The translations under genes and the position numbers were made by a program. Shown one piece after another: positions 13,329 through 61,860 of a DNA stretch of 64,000 nucleotides. This DNA comes from Trypanosoma brucei. Its lineage: Eukaryota. The first letter of the stretch is position 1; each line of letters begins with the position of its first letter. The notes beneath the pieces were generated by a model that did no database searches, was not told the DNA's origin, and saw nothing but the letters and a program-made list of their open reading frames with translations. The stretch spans positions 4,992,001 to 5,056,000 of the forward strand of contig CH464491.1 of the NCBI GenBank assembly GCA_000002445.1, read 5' to 3'.

Positions 13329-13715
13329 TTAGTAGGTAAGGTAGCTTCTTATCCTCTTCTTCTCTGAGTAAAGAGCCTTTAAAAACCAAAAACATCTCTG
13401 CATATGCTCATTGTGATCTGAGTTCATAAGCAAATCCAACTGAGGCGCATAACACTCTGATGTTGTCATGAATATAATGGGGGAAATATGCTTCTCTTTT
13501 ACTATATCTTCTCCAATAACCTTCTCTTCATTTTCCGCAATATTTTGTATAAAATATTCCACAGCATTTTCATACTTATTTCCATCACTAACTATAACAT
13601 CAGATCCGTCGGAATGAATTAAAATATCCTCGTCACTTACGTTCTGTCTTTCCAAAAAAGTCTATTACCCATCTAGGTCTTTTAAGATGGCTGTACAAAC
13701 CTTTCATCGCAATTG
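13329..13715 (-). pseudogene. Fragment of a conserved subtelomeric non-VSG gene family (possibly ESAG3-related), copy 1
   Basis: ORF 13329-13655 ...SDGSDVIVSDGNKYENAVEYFIQNIAENEEKVIGEDIVKEKHISPIIFMTTSECYAPQLDLLMNSDHNEHMQRCFWFLKALY... is homologous to 37314-37952 and 61417-61701. The upstream MKGLYSHLKRPRWV frame is broken. Confidence 0.6.
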
Positions 13716-13877
13716 TAATATTTCATAATTTTATTAATTTGACCAAGAATCCTTAATAAGCTAAAATGATACCAAACTCAAAAAAGCAGCATTCATCAGA
13801 GAAAATTTCTTATTTACAAGGAAACTGAAATCCTTGCATTCTTTTCCATCCCATTTGCAGCCATCTTTGCATTCCCC

Positions 13878-14602
13878 TTAAGTTTTCTTTTTGGTGAACT
13901 TTTTGCCTTCCGCACTTGTTGCTGCAGCTCCCTCCTCTGCTTCGTTTATCTGTCCTTCTCCATCTTTGGGGTTGCATGTTCCATCTGTTTCCGATTTCCC
14001 TTCCAATTTGCAGTTATTGTTTGTGCAGGTCGAGTTCGCGGTATGGGTGGCGCAGGTATCCGCCTTATTTTGTTCCACTTTTCCTTGGATGCCGGCGGTT
14101 TGTTGCGCTGTTTGTGCTATTTCTGGCGCAAAACTGCGTGGGTTTTCTAGAGCTCTGGCACGTGCGGCCAGCACAGCCAATTGTTTACTTCGCTCGTTGA
14201 CGAGGTTGTCATGTTTTTCTCGTGCTTCTAGAGCTGCTGCGAGTTCCTCCATGTCTTTGAGCCATGGGGTTTCCGGGTCTTTAAATATTTCGTGGGGTTT
14301 TTTGTTTGACAATTTGATGCACCTGCCGTTGTTTTGTTTCCCGTTGCAGTTTGTTTGGAACACTCCTAGGTATGTGCTGGTGCCGTCGGTTGTTGCGAGG
14401 CGTGCGATTTTGTTTAGTGCTTGGCGTATCGTGCGGTATGTAGTTTTCTGTTTGTGCTCGTCTGTTATGCATTTGCCTGCGATCTCCCTGGCGGCGTTCT
14501 GATACGGTGCGCCGCTGTTCTGCCACACGTTGGCGGCGGTTTGGCCTTTGAAGCAAATGTCGTCAAATTCGCCGTTCGCTTCTCCTTGGCAGACACAGCT
14601 CA
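13878..14602 (-). pseudogene. VSG: VSG (b-type), C-terminal two-thirds; the 3' part of a VSG split by a retroelement
   Basis: ORF 13878-14984 from ...MSCVCQGEANGEFDDICFKGQTAANVWQNSGAPYQNAAREIAGKCITDEHK... through the C-terminal domain ...NSTCTNNNCKLEGKSETDGTCNPKDGEG. VSG homology begins immediately 3' of the A10 run. Confidence 0.8.
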
Positions 14603-59261: not shown

Positions 59262-60899
59262 TCATATAATTGAGGAAAAGTCCTTAGAATTTTGAAATGC
59301 ATATAATTCTACCAAATTCACAAAATCAGCAGCCATCAGAGCGAATTTCTTATTTACAAGGAAACTGGAATCCTGACATTTGCCTTCAATCCAACCACAA
59401 ACAGCTTTTTTATCTTTAGGAATATCACTTTTTACTGCAGCGCATTCCTCAGGGTTTTTTGCTTGACTACACTTATATGTTGTTTGTCTCCCCATTTCCT
59501 CCAGTTCCTGCTTGGGTTGCTTTTTGCGCTACGTGTGTTTCGTTCAATTTGCAGTGGGGGCCTTCATTGGCATCTTTGTTTTTCCACTCGCATTTTGGCT
59601 GCTGTTCTTTGCACTCAGTTGCTTAATTTATTATTTCGCACTGCGGTTTTGCTTGTTGTTCCTGCTTGTTTTGTCCTTTTTGTTTCTCATCTCCAGCTGG
59701 TGCCGTTAGTTTATGGATCTGTTGGCTAATTTTCACCTGCTGTCCTATGTTGTACGCTTCATTTTTAGTGCCTTGAGTTGTGCTGTCAGCGTCTCTAGTG
59801 TCTGCCTTGTGGCTTGTTGTATCTCTAGCTTGTCGGCCGCACTAAGTAACTTTTGCACCCACGGGATGTTTTTGGCCGCCGCTGCATTAGTTGGGCTATT
59901 TGTCACGTACATTACACAGATTCCTGAGCCGTCTGAGCCGCTGCATCCGGTTGCGGTGTATTTCCCGTAGTATGGTTTGCCCGCTTTTGGCTGGAGCTTG
60001 CTGGTGAACGTTGCGATTTCTAACCTTATTTCTTCTTCTGTTAGCGGGGCTGTGGCTGCATCTGTGTAGCACTTGCCCGCCAGATCTTTGATTGCCGCCT
60101 GTGCTCCGTTTAGGTTTGCTGAGTTTCCTTCGTTGTGTGTCGCCTGGTTTGTTACGCACACCTTGTCGCCTCCTCCATTGTCAGTTCCGTGGCTGGCGCA
60201 AAGGCAGAACAGGTAGGCTGCAACCGTCGTCGTTTTGCAACCGGCTGTATCGCTGCCGCACAAGTTGCTGCGGCTCGTTGCGCCACCATTTTCTGTTCCG
60301 ATATTGGCTTGTTTAATTTCGTCTGTTGCCGCCGCGGAAGCCCCATAAGCTGCGTCTGTTATCAGTTTTCTTATTTTATCTTTTGACAACTCAGAGGCTT
60401 CCTGGTGCTTGTGCTCTATTGCTTGCATGACCGCGTCCGCCCTTTCTGCTGTGGGTTGTAGTTGGGATAACCACAACAGCCTTGTCTGCGTGTCTGGTAC
60501 TTCCACACCGGCTTCCTTCAGTGTTTTTCCTTTTGGCTGCTCCTCCTCGAGCTCGTCTTCGGCTCCTGTCCAGTGCTGCCAGCGTTGTTTTCTCACTTCG
60601 TCTTCTTTGCCATTTTCGGGTTTGTAGGCTGGCCTTGCCTTGCTGTCGCCTGTTTTAGCAAACTACTTTCTCCATTCAAGGCTGGTTATTGACGAGTTTA
60701 ATTTCTGAATTTGCTTGTAGACACCGGCGGCTTCTGAGATGCCTGAAATCTCCGGTATCGGCCGGTTAGCTAGCGCTAGCACATGACAGAGATCCAGGAA
60801 AAGGTGCTCGTTATCTCCCGCCGTCGCCAGTGCTCCTGGAACTTGTGATTTTAGTATTACTAATACCACTGTTAGATTTAGTAGGCTTTTAATTGCCAT
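59262..60899 (-). pseudogene. VSG: VSG (b-type), 546 codons in one frame with two in-frame stops
   Basis: ORFs 60663-60899 (signal MAIKSLLNLTVVLVILKSQVPGALATAGDNEHLFLDLC), 59745-60596 (N-domain ...SNLCGSDTAGCKTTTVAAYLFCLCASHG...) and 59262-59495 (C-terminal domain ...KAVCGWIEGKCQDSSFLVNKKFALMAADFVNLVEL...) are all in the same frame, separated by stops at 60663-60665 and 59745-59747. Confidence 0.8.
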
Positions 60900-61416
60900 A
60901 GTGGAACTAATATTTCTTGCGATGATGGATATTTTGGGAGTGAATGAAAAACAATTGTGTCACTGCCGCGGTTGTTTGGTGCCGCTTTGCATTTCCAAAG
61001 TTTCAGCTATTCGGTTAGTGATATTTGGCAGCTGTTAGTTTGTTGGCGTCGGTACGCTCTTCTTGACAACTTTCACAACTTCTTTGCTCTAAACAATTAA
61101 ACCTCTTTAAACGACACACCACAAATTTCCTGATATTGAAAATCCCATTTTCCTCCGCCCATCGCATAATTTTGAAGTTTCAACAAATCTCTTGTGTTAA
61201 ATTTACTTCGTTTGAACTCTCTATACCAAGTAAAAATTTTCAAAATCAGTCTTTCTTTTTTCCTCCCAGTCATCTGTTTGTCCTACAAAATGAATAAATG
61301 GAGCCTCTCCAATCACCCCACTATTGGGAATAAAAGAATCTCTCTTCATAATCCTATCCAATTATTCCCCTCCTCAAATAAAATATCTGTCTAAAAGCTT
61401 CTTCCTGAATTGCACT

Positions 61417-61860
61417 TCATATTAACAACGGTTTGTAAATACTCTGCTCTGACCACCACTCCCCACTTCCCTTTAGTAACTCTCCAAATGCATATTCAAA
61501 CCTTCTAAATGCCCAAACTCTGGCTATCAAACCATAGCCACTAAGATAAGGGTTCCCACTAGGAGGTGATTTCAGTAACGGCGGTAACTTCTTATCCTCC
61601 TCTTTTCTGTATACAACATTAAAAAAACAATAGAATCTCTTCACATGTTCTTTGTAAATATCCTCTTCACTTTCTGCTGTATGTTGTATAAAATATTCCA
61701 CAGCACTCTCATACTTATTTCCATCACTAACTATAACATCCGATCCGTCTTAATGAATTACAATACCCTCATCAGTTACATTCCGTTTCTCTGAAATATT
61801 CCATAACCCATCTAGGTCTTTTAACGTGACTATATAAACTTCCCGTCGCAATTGTAATAA
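61417..61860 (-). pseudogene. Conserved subtelomeric non-VSG gene (possibly ESAG3-related), copy 3, an internally deleted fragment
   Basis: ORF 61417-61701: MEYFIQHTAESEEDIYKEHVKRF...GLIARVWAFRRFEYAFGELLKGSGEWWSEQSIYKPLLI. The upstream stretch ...ISEKRNVTDEGIVIH*DGSDVIVSDGNKYESAVEYF matches copies 1 and 2. Confidence 0.6.

What the first reader, a model, noticed from the sequence alone, without database searches (positions are those of the whole stretch)
13329..61860. Three pseudogenised copies of one conserved non-VSG gene at a fixed position between the 70-bp repeats and a VSG start
Copies at 13329-13715, 37314-38100 and 61417-61860, all on the minus strand, share the strings ...DGSDVIV(S/T)D...YENAVEYF(I/M)Q..AENEE...SPIIFM...ECYAPQLDLL.N... 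and ...(G)IIARFWAFRKFE.AF.E.LK....EWWSEQSIYKPLL.... Each ends 0.5-0.9 kb upstream of a VSG start codon. Two sit directly downstream of a 70-bp tract, and copy 1 sits immediately downstream of the previous VSG. I cannot place the family from memory. An ESAG3-like subtelomeric family is a guess and a glycosyltransferase-like family is an alternative. Its fixed position suggests it is co-duplicated with VSG cassettes, or that it marks a former expression-site segment.
Basis: partly seen in the sequence, partly recalled or inferred. Interest (0 to 1): 0.55.

Follow-up and report, generated by a model that had tools for sequence, protein, structure and literature searches.

The report
ESAG3 pseudogenes riding inside VSG cassettes
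The three repeated non-VSG sequences are decayed copies of ESAG3, the trypanosome enzyme that adds glucose to the surface coat protein; they are copied along with the coat-protein (VSG) gene next to them, which is a known feature of Trypanosoma brucei subtelomeres.

Summary
The window is a one-strand Trypanosoma brucei-group VSG array. It holds exactly three remnants of ESAG3 (expression-site-associated gene 3): 12828-13740, 37224-38306 and 61076-62062, all on the minus strand. They are 51-78% identical to expression-site ESAG3 (E 1e-83), against about 31-35% for chromosome-internal GRESAG3. All are dead, and almost all lesions are copy-specific (stops, frameshifts, a 5' truncation, a ~100-nt deletion).

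Copies 2 and 3 lie between a 70-bp repeat and the next VSG. Copy 1 is fused to the tail of the preceding VSG. The ESAG3 stop lies 175, 801 and 176 bp before the VSG ATG, not 0.5-0.9 kb.

Copies 1 and 3 with their VSGs are colinear paralogous units, so co-duplication with the VSG is supported. A "former expression site" is not.

ESAG3 pseudogenes in VSG arrays, and downstream of the 70-bp repeats in expression sites BES7 and BES15, are already published.

One point may be new. Two of the three copies, and a T. equiperdum locus I checked as a prediction, precede VSG3-like class B VSGs. VSG3 is the substrate ESAG3 was recently reported to O-glucosylate.

The parts
12828..13740 (-). ESAG3 pseudogene 1. 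It is 5'-truncated, covering ESAG3 aa ~66/74-368. It has 4 frameshifts and in-frame stops at codons 72, 232, 294 and 360. H297 is changed to Y and the W242 region is disrupted.
   Evidence: tblastn vs ESAG3 P0001; frameshift-aware alignment; nhmmer and protein HMM
13741..13763 (-). Junction between the stop codon of the preceding VSG_B fragment (TAG, 13761-13763) and the start of ESAG3 homology. The VSG 3'UTR 16-mer and the 70-bp repeat are missing. The same junction is present in T. b. equiperdum L002.
   Evidence: sequence reading; side-by-side junction sequences
12653..12827 (-). 175-bp spacer between the stop of ESAG3 pseudogene 1 and the VSG ATG.
11011..12652 (-). VSG pseudogene (class B, VSG3-like) downstream of ESAG3 pseudogene 1. 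The ATG is at 12652 and the 3'UTR 16-mer at 11011-11026. The Cys-flanked loop reads CGGASSGGVC.
   Evidence: Pfam VSG_B; PDB best hit VSG3 6ELC E 3e-12; tblastn with VSG3; 16-mer
37224..38306 (-). ESAG3 pseudogene 2. It is full length with an ATG, stops at codons 15, 26, 30 and 338, and a 22-nt deletion plus a compensating 1-nt insertion. All catalytic residues are still readable. A conserved polypyrimidine 5' flank runs to ~38359.
39020..39320 (-). 70-bp repeat tract (about 3-4 units) upstream of ESAG3 pseudogene 2.
   Evidence: TRF; core-motif search
36423..37223 (-). 801-bp spacer between ESAG3 pseudogene 2 and its VSG. Nothing recognisable was found in it.
   Evidence: blastn and tblastx gave no hits
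34983..36422 (-). Intact 479-aa VSG ORF downstream of ESAG3 pseudogene 2. It is VSG558/MITat1.13-like, not VSG3-like.
   Evidence: Pfam C-terminal domain; PDB 8OK7 E 6e-64
61076..62062 (-). ESAG3 pseudogene 3. It is full length with an ATG, 7 in-frame stops, 4 frameshifts and a ~100-nt internal deletion (aa ~138-175). G215 is changed to Y.
62511..62600 (-). Single 70-bp repeat upstream of ESAG3 pseudogene 3.
   Evidence: core motif at 62525-62549; blastn to the copy-2 tract
60900..61075 (-). 176-bp spacer between ESAG3 pseudogene 3 and the VSG ATG.
59203..60899 (-). VSG pseudogene (class B, VSG3-like) downstream of ESAG3 pseudogene 3. The ATG is at 60899 and the 16-mer at 59203-59218. The loop reads CSGSDGSGIC, with the S317 equivalent conserved.
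   Evidence: Pfam VSG_B; PDB best hit VSG3 6ELC E 2.6e-24 with alignment

Best explanation
The three elements are non-functional relics of ESAG3, the GT-A O-glucosyltransferase gene of T. brucei expression sites. They sit in the 'co-transposed' segment of silent VSG cassettes, between the 70-bp repeat and the VSG.

VSG cassettes are duplicated and gene-converted as blocks, bounded upstream by the 70-bp repeats and downstream by the VSG 3' end. An ESAG3 copy that once lay just upstream of a VSG is therefore copied with it each time (hitch-hiking). In the silent array nothing selects for the enzyme, so each copy decays on its own.

Shown here: the ESAG3 identity, the lesions, the position and orientation, the colinear paralogy of (ESAG3 pseudogene + VSG) units 1 and 3, and the recurrence of the units in other T. 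brucei-group genomes.

Inferred: the block-duplication mechanism itself and the timing of inactivation.
For: Identity:
- E 1e-83 to the ESAG3 cluster and 51-78% aa identity over the full 368 aa.
- Chromosome-internal GRESAG3 is only ~31-35% identical to ESAG3.
- A neighbour-joining tree places copies 1 and 3 with expression-site ESAG3 (bootstrap 0.99) and copy 2 with a T. b. gambiense array copy (0.78).
- The catalytic DGSD, GG, WxEQ and H motifs are recognisable (preprint).

Decay:
- Almost all lesions are copy-specific. The one exception is a TAA at codon 15 shared by copies 2 and 3.
- Third codon positions differ 1.4-1.7 times more than first and second positions (p<1e-3). This means much of the divergence happened while the genes were still coding, with inactivation afterwards.

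Position:
- All three are on the VSG strand. Two lie between a 70-bp repeat and the VSG.
- A polypyrimidine/AG 5' flank of about 55-70 nt is conserved.

Co-duplication:
- The VSGs after copies 1 and 3 are each other's best match in the window, colinear at a near-constant offset of 48247-48248 nt, with 175/176-bp spacers.
- T. b. equiperdum chr 7 (L002) carries the copy-1 unit at 89% nt identity with the identical VSG-tail/ESAG3 junction.
- T. b. gambiense chr 5 (L001) shows 70-bp repeat, then ESAG3 pseudogene, then about 200 bp, then VSG pseudogene.
- T. equiperdum L004 shows ESAG3 pseudogene, 190 bp, then a VSG3-like VSG.

Literature:
- 'ESAG3 ... is also in VSG arrays' (PMC3607257).
- 'ESAG3 pseudogene 3' of 70-bp repeat' in BES7, and ESAG3 pseudogenes in BES15 (PMC2567434). 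This shows the relic does travel with a VSG into an expression site.
Against: - Only the copy-1 and copy-3 units are demonstrably paralogous as whole units. Copy 2 and its closest relative (T. b. gambiense) precede unrelated VSGs, so the ESAG3 relic and the VSG can be uncoupled.
- The spacer sequences are not significantly alignable (z about 2).
- Copies 2 and 3 share a TAA at codon 15. If this is ancestral, it conflicts with independent inactivation; it may be a parallel TCA>TAA change or a gene conversion.
- The third-position excess could be inflated by composition.
Confidence: 0.85

Rival explanations
1. Ancestral enzyme-substrate cassette. A functional ESAG3 glucosyltransferase gene was once tightly linked (about 180 bp) upstream of VSG3-like class B VSGs, its O-glucosylation substrates. 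It travelled with them so that enzyme and substrate were activated together. The present copies are relics of that arrangement. This extends the best explanation rather than excluding it.
For: - The VSGs after copies 1 and 3 have VSG3 (6ELC) as their best solved-structure match (E 3e-12 and 2.6e-24). Both keep Ser residues in the Cys-flanked loop that ESAG3 glucosylates in VSG3.
- A prediction was tested. The closest VSG3 relative found (T. equiperdum P0067, 71% identity) has an ESAG3 pseudogene ending 190 bp upstream of its ATG.
- Of the BESs that Hertz-Fowler 2008 lists with extra sequence between the 70-bp array and the telomere, the ESAG3 pseudogenes are in BES7 and BES15. These carry VSG3 and VSG11, both reported to be O-glycosylated.
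- ESAG3 pseudogenes next to VSG3-like VSGs cluster with expression-site ESAG3 (bootstrap 0.99).
Against: - All VSG3-linked cases may descend from one ancestral cassette, so the effective sample size may be 1.
- Two other VSG3-like VSGs in the window (49731-50514 and 2787-3506) have no ESAG3 remnant.
- Copy 2 and the T. b. gambiense copy precede non-VSG3-like VSGs.
- Class B VSGs make up about half the repertoire, so chance association is easy.
- No intact ESAG3 was seen at this position.
Confidence: 0.2
2. The copies mark decayed former expression sites (bloodstream or metacyclic) that became internalised in the array.
For: ESAG3 is by name an expression-site gene. The T. b. gambiense locus L001 also contains an ESAG1 gene about 8 kb away.
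Against: - In expression sites ESAG3 lies upstream of the 70-bp repeats (PMC2567434). Here it lies downstream.
- Immediately upstream of the 70-bp repeats there is simply the 3' end of the preceding VSG (16-mer at 39502; VSG_B fragment 63080-63742).
- Pfam scans of the other ORFs found no other ESAG domain.
- Three such sites within 50 kb of an otherwise regular head-to-tail array is implausible.
Confidence: 0.04
3. The copies are kept because they are useful as DNA, for example as homology blocks that anchor long-range gene conversion with the ESAG3 genes of expression sites, or as suppliers of the VSG's upstream processing signals.
For: Hertz-Fowler et al. noted that recombination breakpoints in expression sites coincide with ESAG3 loci. 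About 1 kb of 60-80% homology is present. The unit is retained across subspecies.
Against: - The copies differ by 22-32% at the nucleotide level, with indels, a ~100-nt deletion and a 5' truncation. By my own knowledge of T. brucei recombination, this is too divergent for efficient homologous recombination.
- No block is more conserved than expected for a former coding sequence.
- Most cassettes (about 16 of 19 in the window) do without one.
Confidence: 0.06
4. Independent insertions of ESAG3 copies (retroposed mRNA or ectopic recombination) into a preferred target upstream of VSGs.
For: Homology between the two ESAG3 lineages ends close to the stop codon and about 55-70 nt upstream of the ATG, so the element looks like a discrete module.
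Against: - No spliced-leader remnant was found.
- No poly(A) tail or target-site duplication was seen in the aligned ends.
- The conserved 5' flank is genomic (a polypyrimidine tract before the splice site), not mRNA sequence.
- Units 1 and 3 are colinear through the VSG.
Confidence: 0.03

Closest known systems
ESAG3 of T. brucei bloodstream expression sites (e.g. CAQ57304, Q26748; 368 aa; Fam53)
   Same: Homologous over the full length at 51-78% aa identity. The motif set is the same (DGSD D110/D113, G215-G216, W242, E244/Q245, H297). The orientation is the same as the VSG.
   Different: The window copies are pseudogenes. They lie in a silent array, downstream rather than upstream of the 70-bp repeats, 175-801 bp from a VSG start.
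'ESAG3 pseudogene 3' of 70-bp repeat' in Lister 427 BES7 (VSG 427-3 / VSG3), and the ESAG3 pseudogenes of BES15 (Hertz-Fowler et al. 2008, PMC2567434)
   Same: The architecture is the same: 70-bp repeat, ESAG3 pseudogene, VSG. In BES7 the VSG is VSG3, the family to which the VSGs after copies 1 and 3 belong.
   Different: Those are in telomeric expression sites and these are in an internal array. I could not obtain the BES7 sequence to test direct homology of the units.
Annotated ESAG3 pseudogenes of T. brucei subtelomeric VSG arrays (PMC6152948; PMC3607257; PMC4766357)
   Same: This is the same thing. The literature states that ESAG3 is spread through subtelomeric VSG arrays, mostly as pseudogenes.
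   Different: None in kind. In the papers I could search, I found no description of their linkage to a particular VSG subfamily.
GRESAG3 / ESAG3-like genes (Tb927.10.9460/9470 type; P0017, P0022) and T. congolense Fam53
   Same: Same GT-A family.
   Different: GRESAG3 is only ~31-35% identical to ESAG3 and the T. congolense copy about 40%, against 51-78% for the window copies. GRESAG3 genes are chromosome-internal and intact.
LH3/PLOD3 glycosyltransferase domain (PDB 6FXR, 6WFV; Pfam GT_PLOD)
   Same: There is weak sequence similarity around the DxxD motif (E 0.03 and 0.005). This agrees with the structural similarity reported in the preprint.
   Different: The scores are below family thresholds. 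This is a distant fold-level relative only.

Membership tests
ESAG3 sensu stricto (Fam53 expansion of T. brucei) | Significant full-length similarity to expression-site ESAG3 (368 aa) | tested here: met
   E 1e-83. tblastn and frameshift-aware alignments cover aa 1-368 for copies 2 and 3, and aa ~66/74-368 for copy 1.
ESAG3 sensu stricto (Fam53 expansion of T. brucei) | Closer to ESAG3 than to the conserved GRESAG3 lineage | tested here: met
   GRESAG3 representatives are ~31-35% identical to ESAG3. The window copies are 58-73% identical in the column-wise comparison. In the NJ tree with a T. congolense outgroup, copies 1 and 3 group with expression-site ESAG3 at bootstrap 0.99.
ESAG3 sensu stricto (Fam53 expansion of T. 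brucei) | GT-A catalytic residues D110/D113, G215/G216, W242, E244/Q245, H297 (preprint 10.64898/2026.01.27.701950) | tested here: inconclusive
   DGSD is kept in all three copies. Copy 2 keeps every listed residue. Copy 1 has H297Y and a frameshift at W242. Copy 3 has G215Y. The point is moot because the reading frames are broken.
ESAG3 sensu stricto (Fam53 expansion of T. brucei) | Intact ORF encoding a functional enzyme | tested here: not met
   Each copy has 4-7 in-frame stops and 2-4 frameshifts, plus a truncation or deletion in copies 1 and 3. These are pseudogenes of the family, not functional members.
ESAG3 sensu stricto (Fam53 expansion of T. brucei) | Location in a telomeric expression site, upstream of the 70-bp repeats | tested here: not met
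   The copies lie inside a head-to-tail silent VSG array, downstream of the 70-bp repeats.
ESAG3 sensu stricto (Fam53 expansion of T. brucei) | UDP-glucose:VSG O-glucosyltransferase activity | not testable with these tools
   This is a biochemical property, and it is not expected for pseudogenes.
Co-transposed-region passenger of a VSG cassette | Lies between the 70-bp repeat and the VSG ATG, on the VSG strand | tested here: met
   Met for copies 2 and 3 and for T. b. gambiense L001. Copy 1 has lost the 70-bp repeat through a VSG-tail/ESAG3 fusion.
Co-transposed-region passenger of a VSG cassette | Duplicated together with the adjacent VSG (colinear paralogy of the whole unit) | tested here: met
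   Units 1 and 3 are colinear at an offset of 48247-48248 nt from ESAG3 through the VSG N-terminal domain. Unit 1 recurs in T. b. equiperdum. This is not shown for copy 2.
   Pfam gave no such match. The only glycosyltransferase hit is a sub-threshold GT_PLOD match. No GT67 sequence was compared directly.
Retroposed (processed) pseudogene | Spliced-leader remnant, poly(A) tail, target-site duplication | tested here: not met
   No spliced-leader match within 3 mismatches. The conserved 5' flank is genomic polypyrimidine sequence. No poly(A) is seen at the aligned 3' ends.

The most novel reading that the evidence does not exclude
The ESAG3 relics are remains of an ancestral two-gene cassette in which the VSG O-glucosyltransferase gene sat about 180 bp upstream of a VSG3-like class B VSG, its own substrate, and was transposed with it.

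Support: two of the three window copies, their T. b. equiperdum counterpart, the nearest database relative of VSG3 (T. equiperdum L004), and by published annotation VSG3 itself in BES7 and VSG11 in BES15, all show an ESAG3 pseudogene next to an O-glycosylatable class B VSG.

If true, this would bear on the question, described as open in the 2026 preprint, of why an O-glycosyltransferase is encoded in the same transcription unit as the VSG.
Probability: 0.2. Interest if true: 0.6.

Novelty: already known. Interest (0 to 1): 0.28.

Why it matters
As filed, this is routine annotation. ESAG3 pseudogenes are a recognised component of T. brucei VSG arrays and of the co-transposed region of some expression-site VSGs.

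Its value is mainly as a marker. A slowly decaying passenger next to a fast-evolving VSG lets cassette genealogies be traced when the VSGs themselves are only about 35% identical.

The one point worth passing on is the recurrent pairing of ESAG3 relics with VSG3-like VSGs. It became meaningful only with the 2026 report that ESAG3 O-glucosylates VSG3. A genome-wide, phylogenetically corrected test would be cheap to run.

Tried and rejected
- Pfam on the copy-2 conceptual protein gave nothing useful, only a spurious pheromone hit. Full-length ESAG3 gives only a sub-threshold GT_PLOD hit.
- I looked for additional, more decayed ESAG3 remnants in the other ~16 cassettes, to test whether every co-transposed region is a dead ESAG3. 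nhmmer --max and a protein-HMM six-frame scan found none. The idea is rejected.
- I looked for homology of the regions flanking ESAG3 (70-bp repeat to ESAG3, and ESAG3 to VSG) with other cassettes or with each other. I found none beyond the 70-bp repeat edges. The 175/176-bp spacers align only marginally better than shuffles.
- I tested whether the 801-bp spacer after copy 2 hides a VSG N-terminus related to the T. b. gambiense VSG. There was no significant hit.
- I tried to identify the source contig through exact look-up of two intact VSG ORFs. Neither is on record.
- Marcello & Barry 2007 (PMC1950905) is not held. A search for 'ESAG3' with 'co-transposed region' returned no paper.
- The word-indexed protein search returned only 2 clusters for each query, so a broad survey of VSG3-like loci was not possible.
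- Retroposition was rejected.
- The T. congolense ESAG3-like locus L003 gave no usable VSG context.

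
Full report
CONTEXT. The window is a head-to-tail array of about 19 VSG genes, pseudogenes and fragments, all on the minus strand. This is shown by:
- Pfam VSG A-type, B-type and C-terminal domains.
- 15 matches to the 70-bp-repeat core against 0 expected.
- 11 matches to the VSG 3'UTR 16-mer against 0.08 expected.
- The ORF and feature map.

This is the silent subtelomeric VSG archive of a Trypanosoma brucei-group organism. 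Two intact VSG ORFs are not on record as exact proteins, so the exact source is unknown. Part of the window is 81-96% identical at the nucleotide level to T. b. equiperdum chromosome 7 (CM010678.1).

OBSERVATION. The three regions are homologous well beyond chance: blastn E 7e-78 and 2e-47, nhmmer E down to 1e-277. The copies are larger than reported. Against full-length ESAG3 they span:
- 12828-~13740 (aa ~66/74-368)
- 37224-38306 (aa 1-368)
- 61076-62062 (aa 1-368, with a ~100-nt internal deletion)
.

A DNA HMM run with all filters off and a protein-HMM six-frame scan found no fourth remnant; the next-best hit is at E~1. So 3 of about 19 cassettes carry the element.

IDENTITY. The conceptual protein of copy 2 hits a 15-member cluster of ESAG3 proteins from T. 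brucei bloodstream expression sites at E 1e-83. It also hits a T. b. gambiense 'hypothetical protein, unlikely' that is itself an ORF within an ESAG3 pseudogene.

An exhaustive HMMER search of 1.84 billion representatives found only 46 relatives. The named ones I looked up are all from trypanosomes. The chromosome-internal GRESAG3 genes of T. brucei and other trypanosomes are ~31-35% identical to ESAG3. The window copies are 51-78% identical by tblastn and 58-73% in the column-wise comparison.

In a neighbour-joining tree of frameshift-corrected translations:
- Copies 1 and 3 group with expression-site ESAG3, bootstrap 0.99.
- Copy 2 groups with the T. b. gambiense array copy, bootstrap 0.78.

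A 2026 preprint (10.64898/2026.01.27.701950) reports that ESAG3 is a Mn2+-dependent retaining GT-A O-glucosyltransferase that modifies Ser317/Ser319 of VSG3. Its catalytic residues are D110/D113, G215/G216, W242, E244/Q245 and H297. The numbering matches P0001. Weak sequence matches to the LH3/PLOD glycosyltransferase domain (E 0.03 and 0.005) agree with the structural relationship the preprint describes.

PSEUDOGENE STATUS.
- Copy 1: 5' truncation, four frameshifts, in-frame stops at codons 72, 232, 294 and 360, H297Y.
- Copy 2: ATG retained; stops at codons 15, 26, 30 and 338; a 22-nt deletion with a downstream compensating 1-nt insertion; all catalytic residues still readable.
- Copy 3: ATG retained; seven stops; four frameshifts; deletion of codons ~138-175; G215Y.

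Almost all lesions are copy-specific. The one exception is a TAA at codon 15 shared by copies 2 and 3. Between copies, third codon positions differ 1.4-1.7 times more often than first and second positions (p from 1e-3 to 1e-8). This indicates that a good part of the divergence accumulated under coding constraint and that inactivation came later and separately.

ANATOMY.
- Copies 2 and 3 start 724 and 462 bp downstream of a 70-bp repeat core, with nothing recognisable in between.
- About 55-70 nt of polypyrimidine-rich 5' flank, a trans-splicing signal by inference, is conserved with the T. b. gambiense copy.
- Homology between ESAG3 lineages ends within about 10-20 nt of the stop codon.
- The ESAG3 stop lies 175, 801 and 176 bp from the VSG ATG (12652, 36422, 60899).
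- Copy 1 begins 20-40 nt after the stop codon of the preceding VSG_B fragment. The usual VSG 3'UTR 16-mer and the 70-bp repeat are absent. The few bases at the joint resemble both a VSG 3'UTR and ESAG3 codons ~64-72, which suggests a microhomology-mediated deletion (inference).

CO-DUPLICATION.
- The VSGs after copies 1 and 3 are each other's best match in the window: 35% aa identity over 204 aa, in a multi-HSP set with summed E 1e-82. They are colinear with the ESAG3 parts at a near-constant offset of 48247-48248 nt. The whole ESAG3 pseudogene-spacer-VSG unit was therefore duplicated.
- The copy-1 unit recurs in T. b. equiperdum chr 7 at 89% nt identity, with the identical VSG-tail/ESAG3 junction. 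The fusion is therefore old.
- T. b. gambiense chr 5 shows 70-bp repeat, about 1 kb, ESAG3 pseudogene, about 200 bp, VSG pseudogene.
- Copy 2 and this T. b. gambiense copy are 78% identical at the nucleotide level but precede unrelated VSGs, so the pairing can be broken.

WHAT IS KNOWN. Hertz-Fowler et al. 2008 list 'ESAG3 pseudogene 3' of 70-bp repeat' for BES7 and ESAG3 pseudogenes among the extra sequences of BES15. Later papers state that ESAG3 occurs throughout subtelomeric loci, mostly as pseudogenes, and that it 'is also in VSG arrays'. The finding is therefore a correct re-discovery of a known genome feature.

MECHANISM. The best explanation (confidence 0.85) is hitch-hiking. Cassette duplication and gene conversion use the 70-bp repeats and the VSG 3' end as boundaries, so an ESAG3 copy lying between them is copied with the VSG. 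In a silent array it then decays.

Rivals considered:
- A former expression site is unlikely. The copies are on the wrong side of the 70-bp repeats, Pfam scans of the larger ORFs found no other ESAG domain, and the array is regular.
- Retroposition is rejected. There is no spliced-leader remnant and no poly(A), and the conserved 5' flank is genomic.
- A role as a recombination anchor cannot be excluded, but the 22-32% nucleotide divergence, the indels, and the absence of the element from most cassettes argue against it.

AN ANGLE THAT MAY BE NEW. The VSGs after copies 1 and 3 have VSG3 (PDB 6ELC) as their best solved-structure match (E 3e-12 and 2.6e-24). Both retain serines in the Cys-flanked loop that ESAG3 glucosylates:
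- VSG3: CTGSASEGLC
- VSG after copy 3: CSGSDGSGIC
- VSG after copy 1: CGGASSGGVC
.

I tested the prediction that other VSG3-family cassettes carry the relic. The closest VSG3 relative retrievable is a T. equiperdum VSG, 71% identical, on the 2.9-kb contig CZPT02001886.1. It has an ESAG3 pseudogene (aa 32-368, with a frameshift and stops) ending 190 bp upstream of its ATG.

Of the BESs that Hertz-Fowler lists with extra sequence between the 70-bp array and the telomere, the ESAG3 pseudogenes are in BES7 and BES15. These carry VSG3 and VSG11, both reported to be O-glycosylated.

Against a functional reading:
- All these cases may descend from one cassette.
- Two other VSG3-like VSGs in the window lack the relic.
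- The copy-2 lineage sits next to non-VSG3-like VSGs.
- Class B VSGs make up about half of the repertoire.

I rate an ancestral enzyme-substrate cassette at about 0.2.

VERDICT. The kind of feature is already known. Interest is low to moderate (0.28); the VSG3 linkage is a cheap hypothesis worth a genome-wide test.

Noticed in passing
window 14605-16326 (with a run of 100 N at 16181-16280): A VSG_B pseudogene (N-terminal part 16292-16741, C-terminal part 13761-15035) is interrupted by about 1.6 kb. The insert carries a minus-strand ORF with five C2H2 zinc fingers (Pfam zf-C2H2_4, E 1e-8) and is followed by an assembly gap. The insert is 96% identical to a segment elsewhere in the T. b. equiperdum locus (L002 18400-19978), and the corresponding VSG in L002 is uninterrupted. 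It is therefore a dispersed repeat, possibly an ingi/DIRE-type retroelement fragment. That identification is my inference and was not verified.
   Followed up: partly
window 38264 and 62026 (ESAG3 codon 15): ESAG3 pseudogenes 2 and 3 share a TAA stop at codon 15 (Ser in functional ESAG3), although they belong to different ESAG3 lineages. The T. b. gambiense relative of copy 2 has Leu there. This could be a parallel TCA>TAA change, a gene conversion or an ancestral lesion; I did not resolve which.
   Followed up: no
window 33842-33857 and 22186-22201: There are extra VSG 3'UTR 16-mer motifs without a full VSG upstream, each lying just before a 70-bp repeat and about 0.9-1 kb downstream of another 16-mer (34909, 23047). 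They look like orphan VSG 3'-end fragments stacked between cassettes.
   Followed up: no
window 34983-36422: An apparently intact 479-aa VSG ORF follows ESAG3 pseudogene 2. Its closest solved structure is VSG558 (8OK7, E 6e-64). Pfam recognises only its C-terminal domain, not an A-type or B-type N-terminal domain.
   Followed up: partly
window 49356-50792 and 2314-3569: Two further VSG3-like class B VSGs are present (tblastn with VSG3, E 1e-17 and 1e-10; Cys-flanked loops CDASQNKGVC and CDGTAGQKQC). Neither has an ESAG3 remnant upstream. The first has an unusually long (1.8 kb) region between its 70-bp repeat and its ATG, with nothing recognisable in it.
   Followed up: partly
L002 7100-9990 (T. 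b. equiperdum chr 7) versus window 13715-13830: Relative to the window, the T. b. equiperdum locus has about 2.8 kb of extra sequence, including another VSG-like stretch, between the upstream VSG and the ESAG3 pseudogene. Both VSG tails in L002 resemble the single tail in the window. The window arrangement therefore looks like a deletion or unequal crossover between two VSG C-terminal regions.
   Followed up: partly
whole window: There is strong strand asymmetry in base composition on the + strand (T 37%, A 22%, C 22%, G 19%). This fits all genes being on the minus strand of a single unidirectional array.
   Followed up: no
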